Position numbers and translations under genes: made by a program | Shown: positions 25,002 to 31,852 of the stretch, in pieces | How positions within the stretch are numbered: position 1 is the stretch's first letter | How the letters are laid out: each line of letters starts with the position of its first letter | Notes under the pieces: model-generated | Told to the model about the DNA's origin: nothing | The model's database searches: none | What the model saw: the letters and a program-made list of their open reading frames with translations, nothing else | Assembly: GCA_035517975.1 (NCBI GenBank) | Contig: DATIYD010000239.1 | Span: 1-41,682, forward strand | DNA length: 41,682 nt | Direction of reading: 5' to 3' | From: Thermoleophilia bacterium | Lineage (GTDB): Bacteria > Actinomycetota > Thermoleophilia > UBA2241

Positions 25002-25507
25002 GGCTGATCCTCCCTGCGCGCCAGCACGATGGCGCCGATCATCGCGGCCAGCAGGACGAACGAGACGAGCTCGAACGGAAAGACGTAGCCGTTGAAGAGC
25101 CCGCTGGCGATCGCGGCCAGGGAGACGTTGTGGGCCTGCGAGCCGTTGGGCAGCATCTTCGAGGTCACGAGGACCACGGTGAGCACGACAAACATGGCCA
25201 CCGCCAGCGGCAGGGCGAAGATCGCCTGACGGTTGAAGAAGAAGCCCAGCGGCGCGTGGTGCTGCTCGGTCAGCATGATCGCGAAGAGCACGACCACCGA
25301 GATCGCGCCCACGTAGATCAGGATCTGGATGACGGCGAGCAGACCGGCGGCGAGCAGCACGTAGGCGGCCGCCACGCCGAGGAAGCAGAGCACCATGGCC
25401 ATCGCCGAATGGACGATGTTGCGGAAGGCCACGACGCCGAGCCCGCAGACCAGCACCCACACCGCGACGATCACGAACAGGACCGGATGGAAATCGCCGT
25501 GCGGCAT
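24998..25507 (-). CDS. nuoJ: NADH-quinone oxidoreductase subunit J
   Basis: 169 aa: MPHGDFHPVLFVIVAVWVLVCGLGVVAFRNIVHSAMAMVLCFLGVAAAYVLL... ATG at 25505-25507 overlaps the upstream stop by 1 nt. Confidence 0.9.
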   Translation of the reverse strand: MPHGDFHPVLFVIVAVWVLVCGLGVVAFRNIVHSAMAMVLCFLGVAAAYVLLAAGLLAVIQILIYVGAISVVVLFAIMLTEQHHAPLGFFFNRQAIFALPLAVAMFVVLTVVLVTSKMLPNGSQAHNVSLAAIASGLFNGYVFPFELVSFVLLAAMIGAIVLARREDQP

Positions 25508-27993
25508 CAGAGGTCGCGCTCCATCTCGTCGAGGGAGGCGCCGTCGCCCTTGACCGGCGTCCACTGCCAGCCGCCGCCCTCGACCGTCTCGCGGACGTGA
25601 GGCACGACGTCGGGCACGCACTCGCGGGGGCCGTCGCCGGGCTTGTCGCGGCGCACGAAGAGCGACTCGCCGGCCAGCAGGGTGCGGCTGTAGCCGGCCA
25701 GCTCGAAGAAGCCGGTCTGCTCGAGGGCGTCGTACGGGCAGACCTCGACGCATTCGCCGCAGAAGATGCAGCGGCTCTCGTCTAGGTCGTACCGGTCGAG
25801 GACCCTGCGATTGACGTCGATGGAGCCGGTCGGGCAGGTCTCGGCGCACTTGCCGCACGAGATGCAGCCGACCGTCTGCAGCGGCAGGTTGTCGGGCGTC
25901 GAGACGATCGTGTCCCAGCCGCGGCCGATGGCGTCGTAGCAGCTCGCCCCGACCTCCATGCGACAGACGCGCACGCAGCGCAGGCACATGATGCAGCGAT
26001 TGGGCTCGCGCATGATGAAGTCGTGGCGGAAGTCGGCTGGGTAGTCGTGCGCGGCCTGCCCGTGAAAGCGGTTCTCGAAGACCTCGTACTCGATGCCGTA
26101 GCGCTGCAGCTCGCAGCTGCCGTTGGCGGGACAGTGGCAATCGAGACAGAGCGCCGCGCCCTGCCGGGCCTGGTCTTCTGTCAAGCCGAGCTCGACCTCG
26201 TCGAAGCTCTTGATGCGCTCGCCGGGGGCAAGCGCCGGCATGGTGGCCGGCCCGACCGGCTGCGAGACGTCGGTCGTCATGTCGATGAACACCGGCGCGA
26301 CCTCGGCCAGGCGGGCGACGCCCGGCTCGAGGGCGTCGCGGGCCCGCAGGGCGTCGAGGAACGGTGTGGCGGCGAGGTCGGAGAGCGATCCCGAGACGGC
26401 CCGCATGTCGGCGCCGCGCAGGAAGGCGTCGATGCTCCAGGCCGCCTTCTTGCCCTGAGCGACCGCCTCGATCACGGTCTGGGCCCCGAGCACGACGTCG
26501 CCCCCGGCGAACACCCGGGGGTCGTCGGTCTGGAAGGTGAATCGGTCGACCTCGACGGTCTGTCGCGAGGTGCGCTTGACGCCCTGCGCCTCGCTCGTGC
26601 CGTCGAGCTTCGGGAGCTGGCCCGTGGCGTTGATCACCTGGTCGCAGGCGAGGACGAAGGTCGGCCCGTCGACGGGCTGCGTCCGGCTCTGACCCGAGTC
26701 GCCGGGCGCGACCTCGAGACGCCGCATCTCGATGCCGGTGACCTTGCCCTTGGCGCCGACGACCACGCGCACGGGCTCGACCAGCGTCTCGAGGCGGGCG
26801 CCCTCGCTCACGGTCGCCGCGACCTCGTCGGGCGGAGCCGACTGGGCGCCGGGCGCGCTCGCCGAGAGCAACGTGACCTCGCGCGCGCCCTTGCGCAGCG
26901 CGACGCGGCAGGCTTCGGTGGCGGCGAAACCGTCGCCGACGACGGCTACCTTGCGACCGACGCGCGCCTCGTCGCCGAGCTCGAGTGCGCCGAGGAGCTC
27001 GAGCGCGTCGAGCACGTCGGCGCCGTCGTGCTCGACCGGCAGCGGCGCGGCGGCGAAGGCGCCCAGGCCGAGGAAGACGGCGTCGAAGCGCGCGGTCAAG
27101 GCGTCGAGCTGCTCGTCGTCGCCCAGGCGAGTGTTGCACCGGAGCTCGACGCCCATGCGCCACAACACGTTCAGCTCCTTGTCGATCACGTCGCGCGGCA
27201 GGCGGAAGCTCGGGATGCCGTAGCGCAGCATGCCGCCCGGTTTGGGCAGGGCCTCGAAGATCGTTACGGCGTGGCCCTCGAGCCGGGCGTAGAACGCGCA
27301 GGCGAGGCCCGCCGGACCGGCGCCCACGATGGCGACCGTCTTGCCGCTGTCGGGCTTGGGCTCCCACGGCAGCAGCAGCTCGCCGGTCTGCTCGTCGTCT
27401 AAGCACTGGTCGGCCATGAAGCGGTGCAGCCAGCAGATGGTGATCGCGTCGTCGACGAGGCGGCGCCGGCAGGGCTCCTCGCAGGGCCGCGGACACACGC
27501 GCCCGAGAATGGCCGGGAACGGCAGGTCCTCGCGCAGCTTGCGCACGCCCGACCGATAGTCGCCGTTGGCGACGGCCTCGAGGAACTGCGGGATCTTGAT
27601 GTGCGTCGGGCAGGCGTCGCTGCAGGGCGGCGTGCAGAACGAGTTGTGATCGGACAGCAGGAGCTCGAGGTAGAGGCGCCGCATGCGGCGCACCTTGTCG
27701 GTGTCCGTGAGCACGACGATGCCGTCGGCCGCCATGGTCGAGCAGCTCGAGACGGGTTTGCCCCAGCCCTCGACCTCGACCATGCACAGGCGGCAGGCGG
27801 CAGAGGCCGGCAGGCGCGACTCGTAGCACAGCGTGGGGATGTGGACGCCGACCCGGGCGGCCGCCTGCAGGATGGTCTCACCCTTGTCGCACGTGACCTC
27901 GCGGCCGTCGATGGTGAGCGAGATCTGCTCGGCGCGCGACGCGGCCGCCTGGGGCGCCCCGGCGTTCTTCGACGTGTCGTGGGCGATCGTCAT
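25507..27993 (-). CDS. Chimeric Fe-S flavoprotein: NuoG/HydA-type N-terminal [2Fe-2S] + GltD/NfnB-like FAD/NAD(P)H oxidoreductase + NuoG/HydA-type [4Fe-4S] motifs + C-terminal half of NuoI
   Basis: About 828 aa from ATG 27991-27993, with ATGA overlap with the nuoF stop. The track merges it into a 1429-aa ORF. Motifs in order: ISLTIDGREVTC...TLCYES...CRLCMVEVEG...SSCS; LELLLSDHNSFCTPPCSDACPTHIKIPQF...GRVCPRPCEEPC; KTVAIVGAGPAGLACAFY...PGGMLRYGIP; RKVAVVGDGFAATEA; FAGGDVV; ERIKSFDEVELGLTEDQARQGAALCLDCHCPANGSCELQ; CIMCLRCVRVC...CISCGKCAETCPTGSI; RCIFCGECVEVCPYDALEQTGFFELAGYSRTLL. No molybdopterin-like domain. Confidence 0.85.
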   Translation of the reverse strand: MTIAHDTSKNAGAPQAAASRAEQISLTIDGREVTCDKGETILQAAARVGVHIPTLCYESRLPASAACRLCMVEVEGWGKPVSSCSTMAADGIVVLTDTDKVRRMRRLYLELLLSDHNSFCTPPCSDACPTHIKIPQFLEAVANGDYRSGVRKLREDLPFPAILGRVCPRPCEEPCRRRLVDDAITICWLHRFMADQCLDDEQTGELLLPWEPKPDSGKTVAIVGAGPAGLACAFYARLEGHAVTIFEALPKPGGMLRYGIPSFRLPRDVIDKELNVLWRMGVELRCNTRLGDDEQLDALTARFDAVFLGLGAFAAAPLPVEHDGADVLDALELLGALELGDEARVGRKVAVVGDGFAATEACRVALRKGAREVTLLSASAPGAQSAPPDEVAATVSEGARLETLVEPVRVVVGAKGKVTGIEMRRLEVAPGDSGQSRTQPVDGPTFVLACDQVINATGQLPKLDGTSEAQGVKRTSRQTVEVDRFTFQTDDPRVFAGGDVVLGAQTVIEAVAQGKKAAWSIDAFLRGADMRAVSGSLSDLAATPFLDALRARDALEPGVARLAEVAPVFIDMTTDVSQPVGPATMPALAPGERIKSFDEVELGLTEDQARQGAALCLDCHCPANGSCELQRYGIEYEVFENRFHGQAAHDYPADFRHDFIMREPNRCIMCLRCVRVCRMEVGASCYDAIGRGWDTIVSTPDNLPLQTVGCISCGKCAETCPTGSIDVNRRVLDRYDLDESRCIFCGECVEVCPYDALEQTGFFELAGYSRTLLAGESLFVRRDKPGDGPRECVPDVVPHVRETVEGGGWQWTPVKGDGASLDEMERDL

Positions 27994-29915
27994 GCCTGGG
28001 GCCGCCCTTCGCCGGCCGCCTCGGGCCGCTCGCTGCCGGACCACACCTTGACGGCCTTGAAGTTGCAGACCTGCCGGCAGGTGTCGCACTTGATGCAGAG
28101 GCTCTCGTCGATCACGTGGAGCTGCTTCTTCTCGCCGGTGATCGCCTGGGTCGGGCACTTCTTGGCGCACAGCCCGCAGCCGGTGCAGTCGCCGCCGATG
28201 TAGTAGGTGATGAGCGCCTTGCAGCGGCCGGCTGGGCAGCACTTGTCGTCGACGTGGGCCACGTACTCGTGGCGGAAGTACTGCAGCGTGGAGAGGACGG
28301 GGTTCGGGGCGCTGCCGCCGAGGGCGCACAGTGACCCGTCGATGATGTACTCGGAGAGCTCCTCGAGCAGATCGATGTCGCCGGGACGCCCCTCGCCTTC
28401 GGTGATGCGCACCAGCGTCTCGAGCATGCGTTTGGTGCCCAGGCGGCAGGGCACGCACTTGCCGCAGCTCTCGTCCTGCGTGAACTGCAGGAAGAACTTG
28501 GCGAAGTCGACCATGCAGGTGGTGTCGTCGACCACGACCATGCCGCCGGAACCCATCATGGAGCCGGCGGCGAGCAGGCTCTCGAAGTCGACCGGGGAGT
28601 CGAGCAGGTCGGCCGGCAGGCAGCCGCCCGAGGGGCCGCCGAGCTGGACCGCCTTGAACTCGCGGCCGGGCAGCATGCCCCCGCCGACATCGAAGATGAC
28701 CTCGCGCAGCGTGGCGCCCATCGGCACTTCGACGAGGCCGCCGTTCTTGAGCTTGCCGGTGAGACTGAAGATCTTGGTGCCCTTCGAGGTCTCGGTGCCC
28801 ATCGCCGTGTAGGCGTCGACGCCGTTGTTCACGATCCACGGCACGTTGGCGTAGGTCTCGACGTTGTTCAGGTTGGTGGGCTGACCGTAGAGGCCGTGGG
28901 CCACCGTGCGGATGTGCTTGCCACGCGGCATGCCGCGCTGCCCCTCGATGCTCGCCGTGAGCGCCGTCGATTCGCCGCAGACGAAGGCGCCGGCGCCCTG
29001 GTTCACGCGGATGTCGAAGTCGAACCCCGAGCCCAGGATGTCGTCGCCCAGCAGGCCGCGCTCGCGCGCCTGCACGAGGGCGGCCTCGAGGCGCTGCACG
29101 GCGAACGGGTACTCGGCGCGCACGTACACGTAGCCGTGCACGGGAGCGGCGCCCGAGCCGATGGCGAAGGCCGCGATGATCATGCCCTCGATCACCGAGT
29201 GCGGGTTGCCCTCGAGGACCGAGCGGTCCATGAAAGCGCCGGGGTCGCCTTCGTCGCCGTTGCAGATGACGTACTTGCAGTCGCCCGGGTTGGCCCGGCA
29301 GAAGCGCCACTTCTTGCCGGCGGGAAAGCCGGCGCCGCCGCGACCGCGCAGGCCCGACCTGGTGATCGCGTCGATCACGCTTTCGGGATCGTTCTCGGCC
29401 AGCACCGTGGCGAGGGCGGTGTAGCCGTCCTGGGCGAGGTAGTCGTCGATCGAGTAGGGATCGATCTTGCCGTTCAGATGAAGGACGAGGCGCTTCTGGC
29501 CCGCATAGAAGGGGATGTCGCGCTCGTAAGGCACGGGCTCGCCGCTCGTGGGGTCTCTGTAGAGGCGCTTCTCGTAGACGCCGTCGGCGGCGATGCTGGC
29601 CGCGATGATGCCGGCCACGTCGGTGGCCCGCACCCGCGAGTAGAACAGGCCCTGCGGCTGCAGCACCACGATCGGCCCCTGCTCGCAGAAGCCGTGGCAG
29701 CCGGTCTCGACGACGCGCACCGTGTCGGTCAGGCCCTGCTCGGCGAGCTGGTCGCGGAAGGCGGCGGTGACCGCCGGCCGGCCCGAGGCGTGGCACGCGG
29801 TGCCGGCGCAGATGCGGACCTCGCGGGCACCCTCGTGGGCGATGATCCCGTCGGGATGAAGGGCCCGCTCGAGGGCGGCGCTCACGGCGGCGGCGCGATC
29901 GGTCGTTGCGCTCAT
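27990..29915 (-). CDS. nuoF: NuoF-family FMN/NADH subunit of the HydB/HoxF-like extended type
   Basis: 641 aa. N-terminal thioredoxin-like [2Fe-2S] domain (CAGTAC...CHGFC). Core motifs are GLRGRGGAGFPAGKKW, YVICNGDEGDPGAF and ESCGKCVPCRLG...SLCALG. The C-terminal 2x[4Fe-4S] domain has CTGCGLCAKKCP...CIKCDTCRQVC. Confidence 0.9.
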   Translation of the reverse strand: MSATTDRAAAVSAALERALHPDGIIAHEGAREVRICAGTACHASGRPAVTAAFRDQLAEQGLTDTVRVVETGCHGFCEQGPIVVLQPQGLFYSRVRATDVAGIIAASIAADGVYEKRLYRDPTSGEPVPYERDIPFYAGQKRLVLHLNGKIDPYSIDDYLAQDGYTALATVLAENDPESVIDAITRSGLRGRGGAGFPAGKKWRFCRANPGDCKYVICNGDEGDPGAFMDRSVLEGNPHSVIEGMIIAAFAIGSGAAPVHGYVYVRAEYPFAVQRLEAALVQARERGLLGDDILGSGFDFDIRVNQGAGAFVCGESTALTASIEGQRGMPRGKHIRTVAHGLYGQPTNLNNVETYANVPWIVNNGVDAYTAMGTETSKGTKIFSLTGKLKNGGLVEVPMGATLREVIFDVGGGMLPGREFKAVQLGGPSGGCLPADLLDSPVDFESLLAAGSMMGSGGMVVVDDTTCMVDFAKFFLQFTQDESCGKCVPCRLGTKRMLETLVRITEGEGRPGDIDLLEELSEYIIDGSLCALGGSAPNPVLSTLQYFRHEYVAHVDDKCCPAGRCKALITYYIGGDCTGCGLCAKKCPTQAITGEKKQLHVIDESLCIKCDTCRQVCNFKAVKVWSGSERPEAAGEGRPQA

Positions 29916-29969: not shown

Positions 29970-30731
29970 TCATCGGTCGACCTCGGCGCGGTGACGCAGG
30001 TCGTTCACCAGTGCCCGCGCCTTGTCGGGGCTCATGCGGCCGTGGGTCTCGTCGTCGCCCAGCCTGACGACGGGAGCGAGGGCGCAGGCGCCGACGCAGC
30101 TCACCGTCTGCAGGGTGAAGAGCCGGTCCTTGCTGGTCTTCCCGACCTCGAGGTCGAGCTCGTCGGAGAAGGCTTCGGTGATGAGCGGGGCGCCGGCCAC
30201 GTGGCAGGCCGTGCCGTGACAGACGGTGATCACGAAGCGGCCGACCGGCGAGAGGCGGAACTGGTCGTAGAAGCTCGCCACGCCGTAGAGCTGCGAGAGC
30301 GAGACGCCGGTCTCGACCGCGATCTCCTGCAGGGCGAGCCGGGGCAGGTAGCCGTAGATCTCCTGGGTGTGCTGCAGGACCGCCATGAGGCCGGTGCCGG
30401 TCTCGCGGTAGTGATCGATGACCGGCGTGATCTGGGTGAGGTCGGGGACCGGCTGAGAGTCGGCGCGCACGCGCTGGATCCGGGCCTCGTTGACGGCCGG
30501 CAGCTCATAGCTGGAGTGGTAGTTCACGCGGATGACCTGGACCGGGCAGTTGGTCTCGCACAGCGTGCAGGCGCGGCAGCGCGGCTCGCCCGAAGCCGGG
30601 TCGAGAGCCACCCGGAACAGGCCGCGGCTGCGCTCGGGCAGCTGCTCGCGCTGTTCGGGGTACTGCACCGTGATCTTGCGCTGCGGCAGGTGACCCAGGG
30701 TGGTGCGCATGGCTTTGAGGATGCCGAGCAT
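29970..30731 (-). CDS. Fusion of the N-terminal half of NuoI (first CxxCxxCxxxCP motif) to a NuoE-type thioredoxin-like [2Fe-2S] subunit
   Basis: 253 aa from ATG 30729-30731, with 1-nt overlap with the nuoH stop. It opens with MLGILKAMRTTLGHLPQRKITVQYPEQREQLPERSRGLFRV...EPRCRACTLCETNCPVQVIRV. The NuoE part follows: LMAVLQHTQEIYGYLP...LYGVASFYDQFRL...VCHGTACHVAG...SCVGACALAPV. Confidence 0.85.
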   Translation of the reverse strand: MLGILKAMRTTLGHLPQRKITVQYPEQREQLPERSRGLFRVALDPASGEPRCRACTLCETNCPVQVIRVNYHSSYELPAVNEARIQRVRADSQPVPDLTQITPVIDHYRETGTGLMAVLQHTQEIYGYLPRLALQEIAVETGVSLSQLYGVASFYDQFRLSPVGRFVITVCHGTACHVAGAPLITEAFSDELDLEVGKTSKDRLFTLQTVSCVGACALAPVVRLGDDETHGRMSPDKARALVNDLRHRAEVDR

Positions 30732-31852
30732 CAGGTGAGCACCGCCACGCTCTTGCGCCGCCGCTCGAGGCGCCAGCGCAGCACCCTGTCGAAGAGGCCG
30801 ACGAAGGCGAGCAGGAAGATCCAGCTGTAGATCGCCATGGCGCCCTTCCAGTGCGGCGCCCACAGCATGACGGCGGCCGTCGCGAGGAGGTTGACCAGGC
30901 CGAGCGGGACCAGCACCTTCCAGGCGAAGCCCATGAGCTGGTCGACCTGGAGACGGGGCACCGACAGGCGGATCCAGATAAGGGCGAACACGAGCGCGTA
31001 GACCTTGATCAGGAACCAGAGGAGCGGCACGATCGCGACCCCGTGGATGACGATGGCGTTGGCCAGCGGCCCCTGCCAGCCGCCCAGGAACAGGGTGACC
31101 GTGACCATCGACATGATGGTCATGCCGGCGTACTCGTTCAGGAAGAACATGCCGAAGCGCATGCCGGAGTACTCGGTGCCGTAGCCGGCGACCAGCTCGG
31201 ATTCGGACTCGGGCAGGTCGAACGGCCCGCGGTTGAGCTCGGCGATGGAGGCGATGAAGAACAGCAGGAACGTGAAGGGCATGGTGAAGACGAACCACTG
31301 GTAGCGGCTCTGGGCGGTCACCACGGTGTTCAGGCTGAGCGAGCCGGCCGCCATGGCGACGACGAGCAGGGCGAGGATCATGGGCAGCTCGTAGGAGATC
31401 ATCTGGGCGCCCGAACGCAGCGCGCCGACGAGCGAGTACTTGTTGTGCGAGGCCCAGCCGCCGAGCAGGATGGCAAGCACGGTGAAGCTCGTGATGGCGA
31501 CGATGTAGATGAGGCCGACGTTCAGGTTCTGGTCGGTCCAGCCGCTGGTGTAGGGGATCACGACCTGGATGGCGACGGCGCCGATCATGACCATGATCGG
31601 CGCCAGCGTGAACATCGCCTTGTCGGCCGCAGTCGGCGCGAAGTCCTCTTTGCCCATCATCTTGAAGGAGTCGGCGACGCTCTGCAGGATGCCCTGCCAG
31701 CCGGTACGGTTGGGTCCGAGGCGGTCCTGCAGGAAGGCGAGCATGCGGCGCTCGAAGAGGATGTTCACGAGCGCGGCCGCGAACACGATGCCGTAGGCGA
31801 TGACGACGGCCACGAGCAGGCGCACGACGGCCCAGACGAGATCCCAGCTCAT
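30731..31852 (-). CDS. nuoH: NADH-quinone oxidoreductase subunit H
   Basis: 373 aa: MSWDLVWAVVRLLV...FERRMLAFLQDRLGPNRTGWQGILQSVADSFKMMGKEDF...FDLPESESELVAGYGTEYSGMRFGMFFLNEY. ATGA overlap with the nuoD stop. The track ORF is over-extended to 32737. Confidence 0.92.
   Translation of the reverse strand: MSWDLVWAVVRLLVAVVIAYGIVFAAALVNILFERRMLAFLQDRLGPNRTGWQGILQSVADSFKMMGKEDFAPTAADKAMFTLAPIMVMIGAVAIQVVIPYTSGWTDQNLNVGLIYIVAITSFTVLAILLGGWASHNKYSLVGALRSGAQMISYELPMILALLVVAMAAGSLSLNTVVTAQSRYQWFVFTMPFTFLLFFIASIAELNRGPFDLPESESELVAGYGTEYSGMRFGMFFLNEYAGMTIMSMVTVTLFLGGWQGPLANAIVIHGVAIVPLLWFLIKVYALVFALIWIRLSVPRLQVDQLMGFAWKVLVPLGLVNLLATAAVMLWAPHWKGAMAIYSWIFLLAFVGLFDRVLRWRLERRRKSVAVLT

What the first reader, a model, noticed from the sequence alone, without database searches (positions are those of the whole stretch)
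26104..27672. GltD-like module appears inserted within a His-ligated [4Fe-4S] motif, with its own leader segment displaced to the distal junction
HydA/NuoG proteins carry a contiguous motif of the form LELLLSNHPLDCxxCxxNGxCELQ. Here the first half, LYLELLLSDHNSFC (about 27640-27672), runs directly into the GltD-type CxxxCxxxCP...IPQF element. The second half, CLDCHCPANGSCELQRYG (about 26104-26160), lies roughly 1.45 kb further along the gene. Immediately before that second half is ERIKSFDEVELGLTEDQARQGAALCLDC. As I recall, this resembles the N-terminal leader of GltD/NfnB proteins (R.K.F.EV...A..EA.RCLxC), yet here it follows the flavoprotein body instead of preceding it. Both junctions therefore look like hybrid cluster-binding motifs. 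The GltD module appears circularly permuted relative to free GltD/NfnB. This could be a recombination scar, possibly at the shared LDC core, that creates two novel cluster sites.
Basis: partly seen in the sequence, partly recalled or inferred. Interest (0 to 1): 0.6.

Follow-up and report, generated by a model that had tools for sequence, protein, structure and literature searches.

The report
Permuted GltD module spliced into NuoG

Summary
The gene is window 25507-27993 (-), 828 aa. Its NuoG/HydA-type motif H-x3-C-x2-C-x5-C is split. H116-x3-C120 lies at the proximal junction and C621-x5-C627 lies 1.49 kb downstream.

The roughly 500 residues between them are a GltD/NfnL-type module whose own N-terminal leader plus CxxC (aa 584-619) follows the flavoprotein body. 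Two reciprocal HMM tests show this. A permuted construct becomes collinear with free GltD. A construct with aa 121-618 excised becomes collinear with canonical NuoG.

This is not a scar in this genome. In 144 of 149 diverse relatives both hybrid motifs occur in the same order. The architecture is solved in StnC (8OH5), Csac NfnA (9BOV) and Tsi NfnA (9N5U). [quoted passage not shown]

I did not find the circular permutation stated in the papers searched. The same permuted cassette also occurs in other fusion proteins.

Features specific to this lineage:
- His replaces the family's Lys ligand.
- There is no Fdh-like domain.
- A NuoI half is fused at the C-terminus.
- The gene sits in a complex I operon.

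Other notes of this scan on this same window already cover the complex I wiring.

The parts
25507..27993 (-). Whole gene, 828 aa. It is an NfnA/StnC-like (Bfu A-type) subunit with a NuoI-like C-terminal half.
   Evidence: Translation and start. Pfam domains. PDB sequence hits 9bov_A, 8oh5_C and 9n5u_A.
27700..27930 (-). N-terminal [2Fe-2S] ferredoxin-like domain, aa 22-98 (Cys 56, 67, 70, 84).
   Evidence: Pfam Fer2_4, E 1e-19. The four Cys are invariant in 54 homologues.
27583..27675 (-). Proximal hybrid junction, aa 107-137. The NuoG helix plus H116-x3-C120 runs directly into GltD C124-x3-C128-P and ..IPQF.
   Evidence: PF10588 positions 1-17 and PF14691 positions 27-76 on this piece. The NuoG HMM ends here and the GltD HMM starts at aa 121. 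H116, C120, C124 and C128 are invariant.
27397..27636 (-). Fe-S helical part of the GltD module, aa 120-199. It includes C167-x3-C171-x3-C175 and H190.
   Evidence: Pfam Fer4_20 positions 27-110. The ligands of the FAD-proximal cluster in Csac NfnA (C108, C147, C151, K170) map to C128, C167, C171 and H190 through the alignment.
26407..27339 (-). FAD and NAD(P)H-binding Rossmann domains of the GltD module, aa 219-529.
   Evidence: Pfam Pyr_redox_2. Free-GltD HMM nodes 50-467 align to aa 121-529 at 329 bits.
26245..26406 (-). Linker, aa 530-583. It joins the old C-terminus of the GltD module to its old N-terminus.
   Evidence: It lies between the two GltD HMM domains. In the AF2 model it is partly helical with a low-confidence loop at aa 573-581.
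26137..26244 (-). Displaced GltD leader plus C616-x2-C619, aa 584-619.
   Evidence: Free-GltD HMM nodes 13-51 align to aa 584-622 (19.5 bits, iE 1.7e-8). The leader-only HMM scores 39.8 bits against a shuffle maximum of 5.3.
26095..26148 (-). Distal hybrid junction, aa 616-633. GltD C616-x2-C619 is followed one residue later by NuoG C621-x5-C627-ELQ.
   Evidence: PF14691 positions 1-37 and PF10588 positions 16-40 on this piece. The NuoG HMM resumes at aa 617. C616, C619, C621 and C627 are invariant.
25822..26019 (-). NuoG/HydA-type ferredoxin-like domain, aa 659-724 (C667 and C710 motifs).
   Evidence: Pfam Fer4_Nqo3. NuoG HMM nodes 101-208 align to aa 617-726.
25510..25806 (-). NuoI-like C-terminal half, aa 730-828, with the C742 motif. 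It replaces the Fdh/molybdopterin-like domain of NfnA/StnC.
   Evidence: Fer4_7 positions 30-52 only. There is no separate nuoI gene in the operon.

Best explanation
The gene encodes the A subunit of a Bfu-type (NfnABC/StnABC-like) redox module. A circularly permuted GltD/NfnL flavoprotein cassette is spliced into the two-residue spacer of the NuoG/HydA motif H-x3-C-x2-C-x5-C.

The cassette's termini lie inside its own CxxC-x4-C-x3-CP loop, so the two motifs are interdigitated with no real linker.
- At the proximal junction, C120 (NuoG) is three residues from C124 (GltD).
- At the distal junction, C619 (GltD) is one residue from C621 (NuoG).

Inferred ligation:
- The His-ligated cluster (N5 / A3 / C5) is bound by H116, C120, C621 and C627.
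- The distal GltD cluster (A6 / C6) is bound by C616, C619, C124 and C175.
- The FAD-proximal cluster (A7 / C7) is bound by C128, C167, C171 and H190.

The junctions therefore staple two clusters side by side. They form the wire FAD -> A7 -> A6 -> A3 -> the NuoG-type cluster chain.

This design is ancient and is a hallmark of the family. It was not produced by an event in this genome.

Shown: the split of both motifs, the permutation, its conservation, and the shared fold with solved NfnA/StnC. Inferred: which residue binds which cluster, and the direction of electron flow in this organism.
For: Test against free GltD:
- An HMM of 19 free GltD-type proteins hits the native protein in two pieces: nodes 50-467 at aa 121-529 and nodes 13-51 at aa 584-622.
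- The construct aa 575-619 + 121-574 gives one collinear domain, nodes 13-467, at 366 bits.

Test against canonical NuoG:
- An HMM of 25 canonical NuoG/HydA N-termini hits aa 20-125 and aa 617-726 separately.
- Excising aa 121-618 gives one collinear domain of 211.5 bits with the canonical H-x3-C-x2-C-x5-C spacing.

Other evidence:
- Pfam halves on the two junction pieces are complementary.
- The shuffle control supports the leader match.
- All eight junction ligand residues, plus C167, C171, C175 and H190, are invariant in 119 family members.
- Both motifs occur in 144 of 149 diverse representatives.
- PDB sequence hits show the same two-segment alignment to 9bov_A, 8oh5_C and 9n5u_A.
- The AF2 model (pLDDT 87.6) aligns over about 710-720 columns with those chains at TMq 0.66-0.71.

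Support for the ligation model:
- The StnC structure paper sets the domain limits at aa 1-101 (NuoG part) and 102-565 (GltD-like, holding C6 and C7).
- With the offsets, these limits fall exactly at window C120|T121 and C619|H620.
- The A7 ligands of Csac NfnA are given in the text.
- The electron path A7-A6-A3-A2-A1-B1 is given for Tsi NfnA.
Against: - No coordinates of the AF2 model or of the PDB entries could be read, so I did not measure which Cys and His converge.
- pLDDT at the junctions is only about 70-76.
- The ligand sets of A3 and A6 are marked only in a figure of the StnC supplement.
- His190 replaces the Lys described as conserved in all NfnABC enzymes.
- The NADPH-site Arg cluster of the family consensus is missing in this copy, so the entry point of electrons may differ from NfnA.
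Confidence: 0.82

Rival explanations
1. Each junction is a self-contained four-ligand site. The distal motif C616-x2-C619-x-C621-x5-C627 binds the N5-like cluster alone, with Cys in place of His. The proximal motif H116-x3-C120-x3-C124 plus C175 binds the GltD distal cluster. The half-motifs would then not share clusters across the insertion.
For: - Each junction holds four potential ligands.
- The construct aa 1-115 + 616-828 still scores 200.5 bits against the NuoG HMM.
Against: - The register with C619-H620 as the x2 spacer scores higher, 211.5 bits.
- In an alignment with free GltD, C120 falls on Lys/Arg, not on a Cys.
- The leader up to C619 is homologous to the GltD leader up to its second Cys.
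- The published domain limits 101/102 and 565/566 of StnC put H and C(2) in the NuoG part and the CxxC in the GltD part.
- From general knowledge, two Cys separated by one residue rarely bind the same cubane.
Confidence: 0.12
2. The arrangement is a recent, lineage-specific recombination or an assembly chimera in this metagenome-derived genome, and the junction motifs are accidental.
For: The genome is a fragmented assembly of 521 contigs with 6.6% contamination.
Against: - An identical protein occurs on two contigs, and 119 homologues at 64-76% identity have all junction residues invariant.
- The same order occurs in 144 of 149 distant representatives and in solved structures.
- No DNA repeat links the junctions.
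Confidence: 0.01
3. The similarity of aa 592-619 to GltD leaders is convergent: any helix followed by CxxC next to a cluster would look alike. The module would then simply be N-terminally truncated, not permuted.
For: - The segment is short, about 40 aa.
- Its Pfam E-value taken alone is modest, 3.9e-3.
Against: - It scores 39.8 bits against a shuffle maximum of 5.3.
- A leader domain covering about HMM nodes 5-59 (24-60 in one genome paralogue) is found about 25-50 residues after the body in most permuted proteins tested, at 10-34 bits. These include architectures without any NuoG part.
- The permuted construct gains 37 bits and becomes collinear.
Confidence: 0.05

Closest known systems
NfnA / StnC / NsoC, the A subunit of Nfn-Bfu (NfnABC, StnABC) electron-bifurcating transhydrogenases. 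Structures: 8OH5/8OH9, 9BOV/9BP5, 9N5U/9N5V.
   Same: - N-terminal [2Fe-2S] domain.
- GltD/NfnL-like FAD module between H-x3-C and C-x5-C of the NuoG motif.
- The same two hybrid motifs, and the same break node in the GltD profile.
- The NuoG-type ferredoxin domain that follows.
- Neighbouring HydB-like NuoF and NuoE-like genes.

   Different: - Sequence identity is 32-38% in the structural alignments, and bit scores drop steeply outside the family's own 50%-identity cluster.
- There is no Fdh/molybdopterin-like C-terminal domain; a NuoI-like half-ferredoxin tail takes its place.
- His190 stands where 140 of 147 relatives have the Lys ligand.
- The Arg-rich NADPH motif of the family consensus is replaced in this copy.
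- The gene lies inside a nuoABCDH...JKLMN operon.
Free GltD / NfnB (NfnL) / SudA and the GltD-like domain of dihydropyrimidine dehydrogenase
   Same: - The whole module, leader included, is homologous. The permuted construct aligns with nodes 13-467 of a 469-node HMM.
- The fold matches 5jca_L, 4ylf_B and 6s6s_E at TMt about 0.8.
   Different: - The order is circularly permuted, with the break between the second and third Cys of CxxC-x4-C-x3-CP.
- The non-Cys ligand position is Glu in 19 of 19 free proteins and His here.
NuoG / Nqo3 / HydA N-terminal domains (cluster N5 or FS4C, motif H-x3-C-x2-C-x5-C)
   Same: The [2Fe-2S] domain, the helix before the His, the last two Cys with ELQ, and the following ferredoxin-like domain align collinearly once aa 121-618 are removed.
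   Different: The motif is interrupted by 498 residues, and there is no molybdopterin-like domain.
Nuo-Bfu, the complex I predicted to carry a BfuABC input module (Schut et al. 2022, PMC9304861)
   Same: BfuBC-type NuoF and NuoE genes lie in the middle of a nuo operon.
   Different: - The described Nuo-Bfu clades are in Deferribacteres, Proteobacteria, Planctomycetes and Nitrospirae, with 14 subunits A-N. I inferred that their A subunit is NuoG-like.
- Here the A subunit is of the Nfn type with the GltD cassette.
- Here NuoI is split onto two fusion proteins.

Membership tests
Nfn-Bfu A subunit (NfnA/StnC/NsoC) | Two Cys-rich hybrid motifs, HxxxCxxxCxxxCP and CxxCxCxxxxxC, flanking a GltD-like module | tested here: met
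   H116-x3-C120-x3-C124-x3-C128-P and C616-x2-C619-x-C621-x5-C627. Both motifs occur in 144 of 149 representatives. They are named in Kremp 2020.
Nfn-Bfu A subunit (NfnA/StnC/NsoC) | N-terminal [2Fe-2S] domain and a NuoG-type ferredoxin-like domain after the insert | tested here: met
   Fer2_4 at aa 22-98 and Fer4_Nqo3 at aa 659-724. The NuoG HMM aligns on both sides of the insert.
Nfn-Bfu A subunit (NfnA/StnC/NsoC) | Lys ligand of the FAD-proximal [4Fe-4S] cluster, stated to be conserved in all NfnABC enzymes | tested here: not met
   The position is His190. It is His in 119 of 119 members of this family, Lys in 140 of 147 other representatives and Glu in free GltD.
Nfn-Bfu A subunit (NfnA/StnC/NsoC) | C-terminal Fdh/NuoG molybdopterin-like domain | tested here: not met
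   The protein ends at aa 828 with a half-ferredoxin tail. Most relatives are 1000-1250 aa long.
Nfn-Bfu A subunit (NfnA/StnC/NsoC) | [quoted passage not shown] | tested here: met
   Pfam on window 27990-29915 and 29970-31298.
Nfn-Bfu A subunit (NfnA/StnC/NsoC) | NADPH site: GxGxxA plus basic residues after the second strand | tested here: inconclusive
   G353-D-G-F-A-A358 keeps GxGxxA. The family consensus YRRSRKEMPA reads SASAPGAQSA in this copy.
Nfn-Bfu A subunit (NfnA/StnC/NsoC) | NADPH-dependent, NAD- and ferredoxin-coupled bifurcating activity | not testable with these tools
   This needs the purified complex.
Free GltD/NfnB/SudA | Collinear order: leader, then CxxC-x4-C-x3-CP, then the flavoprotein body | tested here: not met
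   The leader plus CxxC lies after the body.
NuoG/Nqo3 (complex I 75-kDa subunit) | Contiguous H-x3-C-x2-C-x5-C motif and a molybdopterin-like C-terminal domain | tested here: not met
   The motif is split by 498 aa. No such domain is found by Pfam.

The most novel reading that the evidence does not exclude
The GltD module of all Nfn-Bfu A subunits, and of several unrelated fusion proteins, may be one ancient circular permutant. Its new termini lie inside its own Cys loop, which would make it an insertable redox cassette that can be spliced loop-to-loop into another cluster motif. The other fusion partners seen here are NuoF-C-terminal fusions that end right after the CxxC, an HdrA-like context, and possibly paralogues in this genome with xanthine-dehydrogenase-type FAD domains. 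I did not find this stated in the papers searched. In this Thermoleophilia lineage a variant of the cassette, with His instead of the Lys ligand and an altered NADPH site, would feed a complex I directly.
Probability: 0.45. Interest if true: 0.45.

Novelty: new member of a known kind. Interest (0 to 1): 0.3.

Why it matters
For this finding the value is mainly in settling what the feature is. The odd split motif is the normal wiring of the Nfn-Bfu A subunit, so the junction Cys and His can be annotated as ligands of two adjacent [4Fe-4S] clusters and need not be treated as damage.

Two smaller points go beyond what I found in print.
- The GltD module is a true circular permutant with the same breakpoint in every architecture examined. 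This explains how a flavoprotein could be spliced into a cluster loop without any linker.
- This complex-I-linked clade replaces the conserved Lys ligand with His. That predicts a different potential for the first cluster after FAD.

Tried and rejected
- The first AF2 run, with 54 close homologues, gave pLDDT below 50 at exactly the junctions and the C-terminal third, so I discarded it. A second run with 73 more diverse sequences over aa 20-735 was good.
- Neither model's coordinates reach the scripts, so Cys-Cys distances could not be measured.
- The StnC supplement marks the cluster ligands only in a figure. No supplement is held for the Tsi NfnA paper.
- Searching papers for circular permutation together with GltD, NfnB, glutamate synthase or DPD found nothing relevant. 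The three structure papers and the Fe-S flavoenzyme review contain no 'permut'. This is absence in the papers searched, not proof of absence. The 2008 Nso paper is not held.
- A search for direct DNA repeats linking the two junctions found only GC-rich chance matches.
- In a quick maximum-likelihood tree of 78 GltD cores the permuted modules cluster (3 changes, against 22.6 in shuffles), and a single origin is not rejected (p-AU 0.644). The collinear sample comes from one phylum and the tree is unrooted, so neither direction nor number of events is shown.
Full report
**What is there.** The finding lies in one gene, window 25507-27993 on the minus strand, 828 aa, starting MTIAHDTSK. The 1429-aa ORF that the ORF listing reports is this gene preceded by nuoF read out of frame.

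Pfam finds these domains:
- Fer2_4 at aa 22-98.
- Fer4_20 at aa 120-199, covering only profile positions 27-110.
- Pyr_redox_2 at aa 219-514.
- Fer4_Nqo3 at aa 659-724.
- A ferredoxin-type motif near aa 742.

**The split is real on both sides.** When the two junction pieces are scanned alone, they carry complementary halves of two Pfam profiles.
- aa 102-168 match NADH-G_4Fe-4S_3 positions 1-17 and Fer4_20 positions 27-76.
- aa 582-644 match Fer4_20 positions 1-37 and NADH-G_4Fe-4S_3 positions 16-40.

*Test against free GltD.* An HMM of 19 free, collinear GltD/NfnB-type proteins of the same phylum hits the native protein in two pieces.
- Nodes 50-467 align to aa 121-529 (329 bits).
- Nodes 13-51 align to aa 584-622 (19.5 bits, iE 1.7e-8).
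- The rearranged construct aa 575-619 + 121-574 gives one collinear domain, nodes 13-467, at 366 bits.

*Test against canonical NuoG.* An HMM of 25 canonical NuoG/HydA N-termini hits aa 20-125 and aa 617-726 separately. Removing aa 121-618 gives one collinear domain of 211.5 bits. That construct has exactly the canonical H-x3-C-x2-C-x5-C spacing, with C619-H620 acting as the x2 spacer.

*Control.* A leader-only HMM scores the real segment at 39.8 bits. The maximum over 2000 shuffles is 5.3, and no other window of the protein exceeds 5.9.

So the GltD module is circularly permuted. It is broken between the second and third Cys of its CxxC-x4-C-x3-CP motif, and it sits in the spacer of the His-cluster motif.

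**It is not a local scar.**
- The protein has over a hundred full-length homologues at 64-76% identity. They come mostly from metagenomes, and the few that carry names are Thermoleophilia or Actinobacteria.
- H116, C120, C124, C128, C616, C619, C621 and C627 are invariant in them.
- Among representatives of 50%-identity clusters, 144 of 149 have both motifs in the same order.
- The GltD profile breaks at node 48-52 in every permuted protein examined. In most of them a leader domain follows 25-50 residues after the body.
- The same two-segment alignment appears against three solved enzymes: Caldicellulosiruptor NfnA (9BOV), Sporomusa StnC (8OH5) and Thermococcus NfnA (9N5U).
- A good AF2 model of aa 20-735 (pLDDT 87.6) aligns with these three over about 710-720 columns at TMq 0.66-0.71.
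- No DNA repeat connects the junctions.

**What is already published.**
- Kremp et al. [quoted passage not shown] At that time it was unknown whether the motifs bind clusters.
- The StnC structure paper assigns aa 1-101 to the hydrogenase-like [2Fe-2S] part. It assigns aa 102-565 to the GltD-like fold holding clusters C6 and C7, and it speaks of domain insertion.
- The Tsi NfnA paper gives the electron path A7-A6-A3-A2-A1-B1.
- The Csac paper gives the A7 ligands as C108, C147, C151 and K170.
- None of these texts, nor a full-text search, uses the notion of circular permutation for this module.

**How it most likely works.**
- Mapping with the alignment offsets (-20 at the proximal junction, -54 at the distal one), the published StnC domain limits 101/102 and 565/566 fall exactly at window C120|T121 and C619|H620.
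- The A7 ligands map to C128, C167, C171 and H190.
- Eight invariant residues then remain for two clusters.
- By homology with each parent motif, H116, C120, C621 and C627 bind the His-ligated cluster. This follows the NuoG N5 pattern, which I take from established knowledge of Nqo3 and HydA.
- C616, C619, C124 and C175 bind the distal GltD cluster. This follows the DPD nFeS1 pattern, which I take from my own knowledge of Dobritzsch 2001.
- Neighbouring residues at each junction thus ligate different clusters. This holds the two cubanes together and makes the junctions the wire from FAD into the NuoG-type chain.
- The ligand assignment is inferred. I could not read coordinates, and the ligand figure of the StnC supplement is an image.
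- The rival, in which each junction is a self-contained site, scores lower in the NuoG register test (200.5 against 211.5 bits) and conflicts with the published domain limits.

**Wider distribution of the cassette.** The same permuted module, with the same break node, also occurs outside NfnA.
- It follows a NuoF-C-terminal-like domain in P0304, P0338, P0345 and P0384. P0384 ends nine residues after the CxxC.
- It follows another N-terminal domain in P0346.
- It stands at the very N-terminus of P0353, which continues into further Cys motifs.
- The window's own genome holds four more GltD modules that start at Fer4_20 position 28-31, behind other FAD-type domains.

In a quick tree of 78 cores the permuted modules cluster, and a single origin is not rejected (p-AU 0.644). 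The collinear sample is from one phylum and the tree is unrooted.

**What is particular to this copy.**
- The closest 50%-cluster representative belongs to the protein's own family. The next hit drops from 1346 to 564 bits.
- The family lacks the Fdh-like domain and ends in a half-ferredoxin tail. The matching first half sits at the N-terminus of the NuoE fusion.
- The operon reads nuoA-B-C-D-H, I(N)::E, F (HydB-type), this gene, J-K-L-M-N.
- The ligand position that is Lys in 140 of 147 relatives and Glu in free GltD is His in all 119 family members.
- This copy also lacks the Arg-rich stretch of the family's NADPH site.
- Earlier notes of this scan on this same window already describe the complex I wiring. 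One of them pointed me to the 'Nuo-Bfu' class of Schut 2022, which I read.

**Verdict.** The reading as insertion plus permutation plus hybrid motifs is supported. The reading as a novelty-creating scar is not. The junction architecture is known and structurally solved. The explicit permutation and its modular spread are a modest addition.

Noticed in passing
window 27424-27426 (aa H190): The non-Cys ligand position of the FAD-proximal [4Fe-4S] cluster is His in all 119 members of this complex-I-linked family. It is Lys in 140 of 147 other NfnA/StnC-like representatives and Glu in 19 of 19 free GltD-type proteins. The neighbouring C187 is also invariant in this family only.
   Followed up: partly
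window 26824-26949 (aa 349-390): The NAD(P)H-binding stretch keeps GxGxxA (GDGFAA). The family consensus YRRSRKEMPA reads SASAPGAQSA in this copy, so the basic residues expected for the NADPH 2'-phosphate are missing here although they are conserved in close homologues.
   Followed up: partly
window 29970-30740 (-) and 25510-25806 (-): NuoI appears split. A first-half ferredoxin motif (Fer4_7 positions 1-24) precedes the NuoE thioredoxin-like domain. The second half (Fer4_7 positions 30-52) forms the tail of the finding's gene. No separate nuoI gene is present.
   Followed up: partly
window 27990-29915 (-): NuoF is of the HydB/BfuB type, with an N-terminal thioredoxin-like [2Fe-2S] domain and a C-terminal 2x[4Fe-4S] domain.
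   Followed up: no
L004, L005, L006, L007 (other contigs of the same genome): Four further open frames carry a GltD module that starts at Fer4_20 position 28-31. They lie behind a xanthine-dehydrogenase-type FAD_binding_5 domain (L005) or an extra Rossmann domain (L004, L006, L007). L006 shows a weak leader after the body. The frames are cut by locus ends and gene limits were not checked.
   Followed up: partly
G000 contigs C105, C448, C387: The same genome has three contiguous, canonical NADH-G_4Fe-4S_3 motifs elsewhere, in open frames of 351, 743 and 641 aa. It therefore also encodes ordinary NuoG/HydA/Fdh-type proteins.
   Followed up: no
P0384, P0304, P0338, P0345, P0353 (metagenome proteins): These are permuted GltD modules without a NuoG N-terminus. 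Four follow a NuoF-C-terminal-like domain, and P0384 ends nine residues after the leader-CxxC. P0353 starts directly with xPC-x3-CP. This suggests the permutant exists as a cassette of its own.
   Followed up: partly
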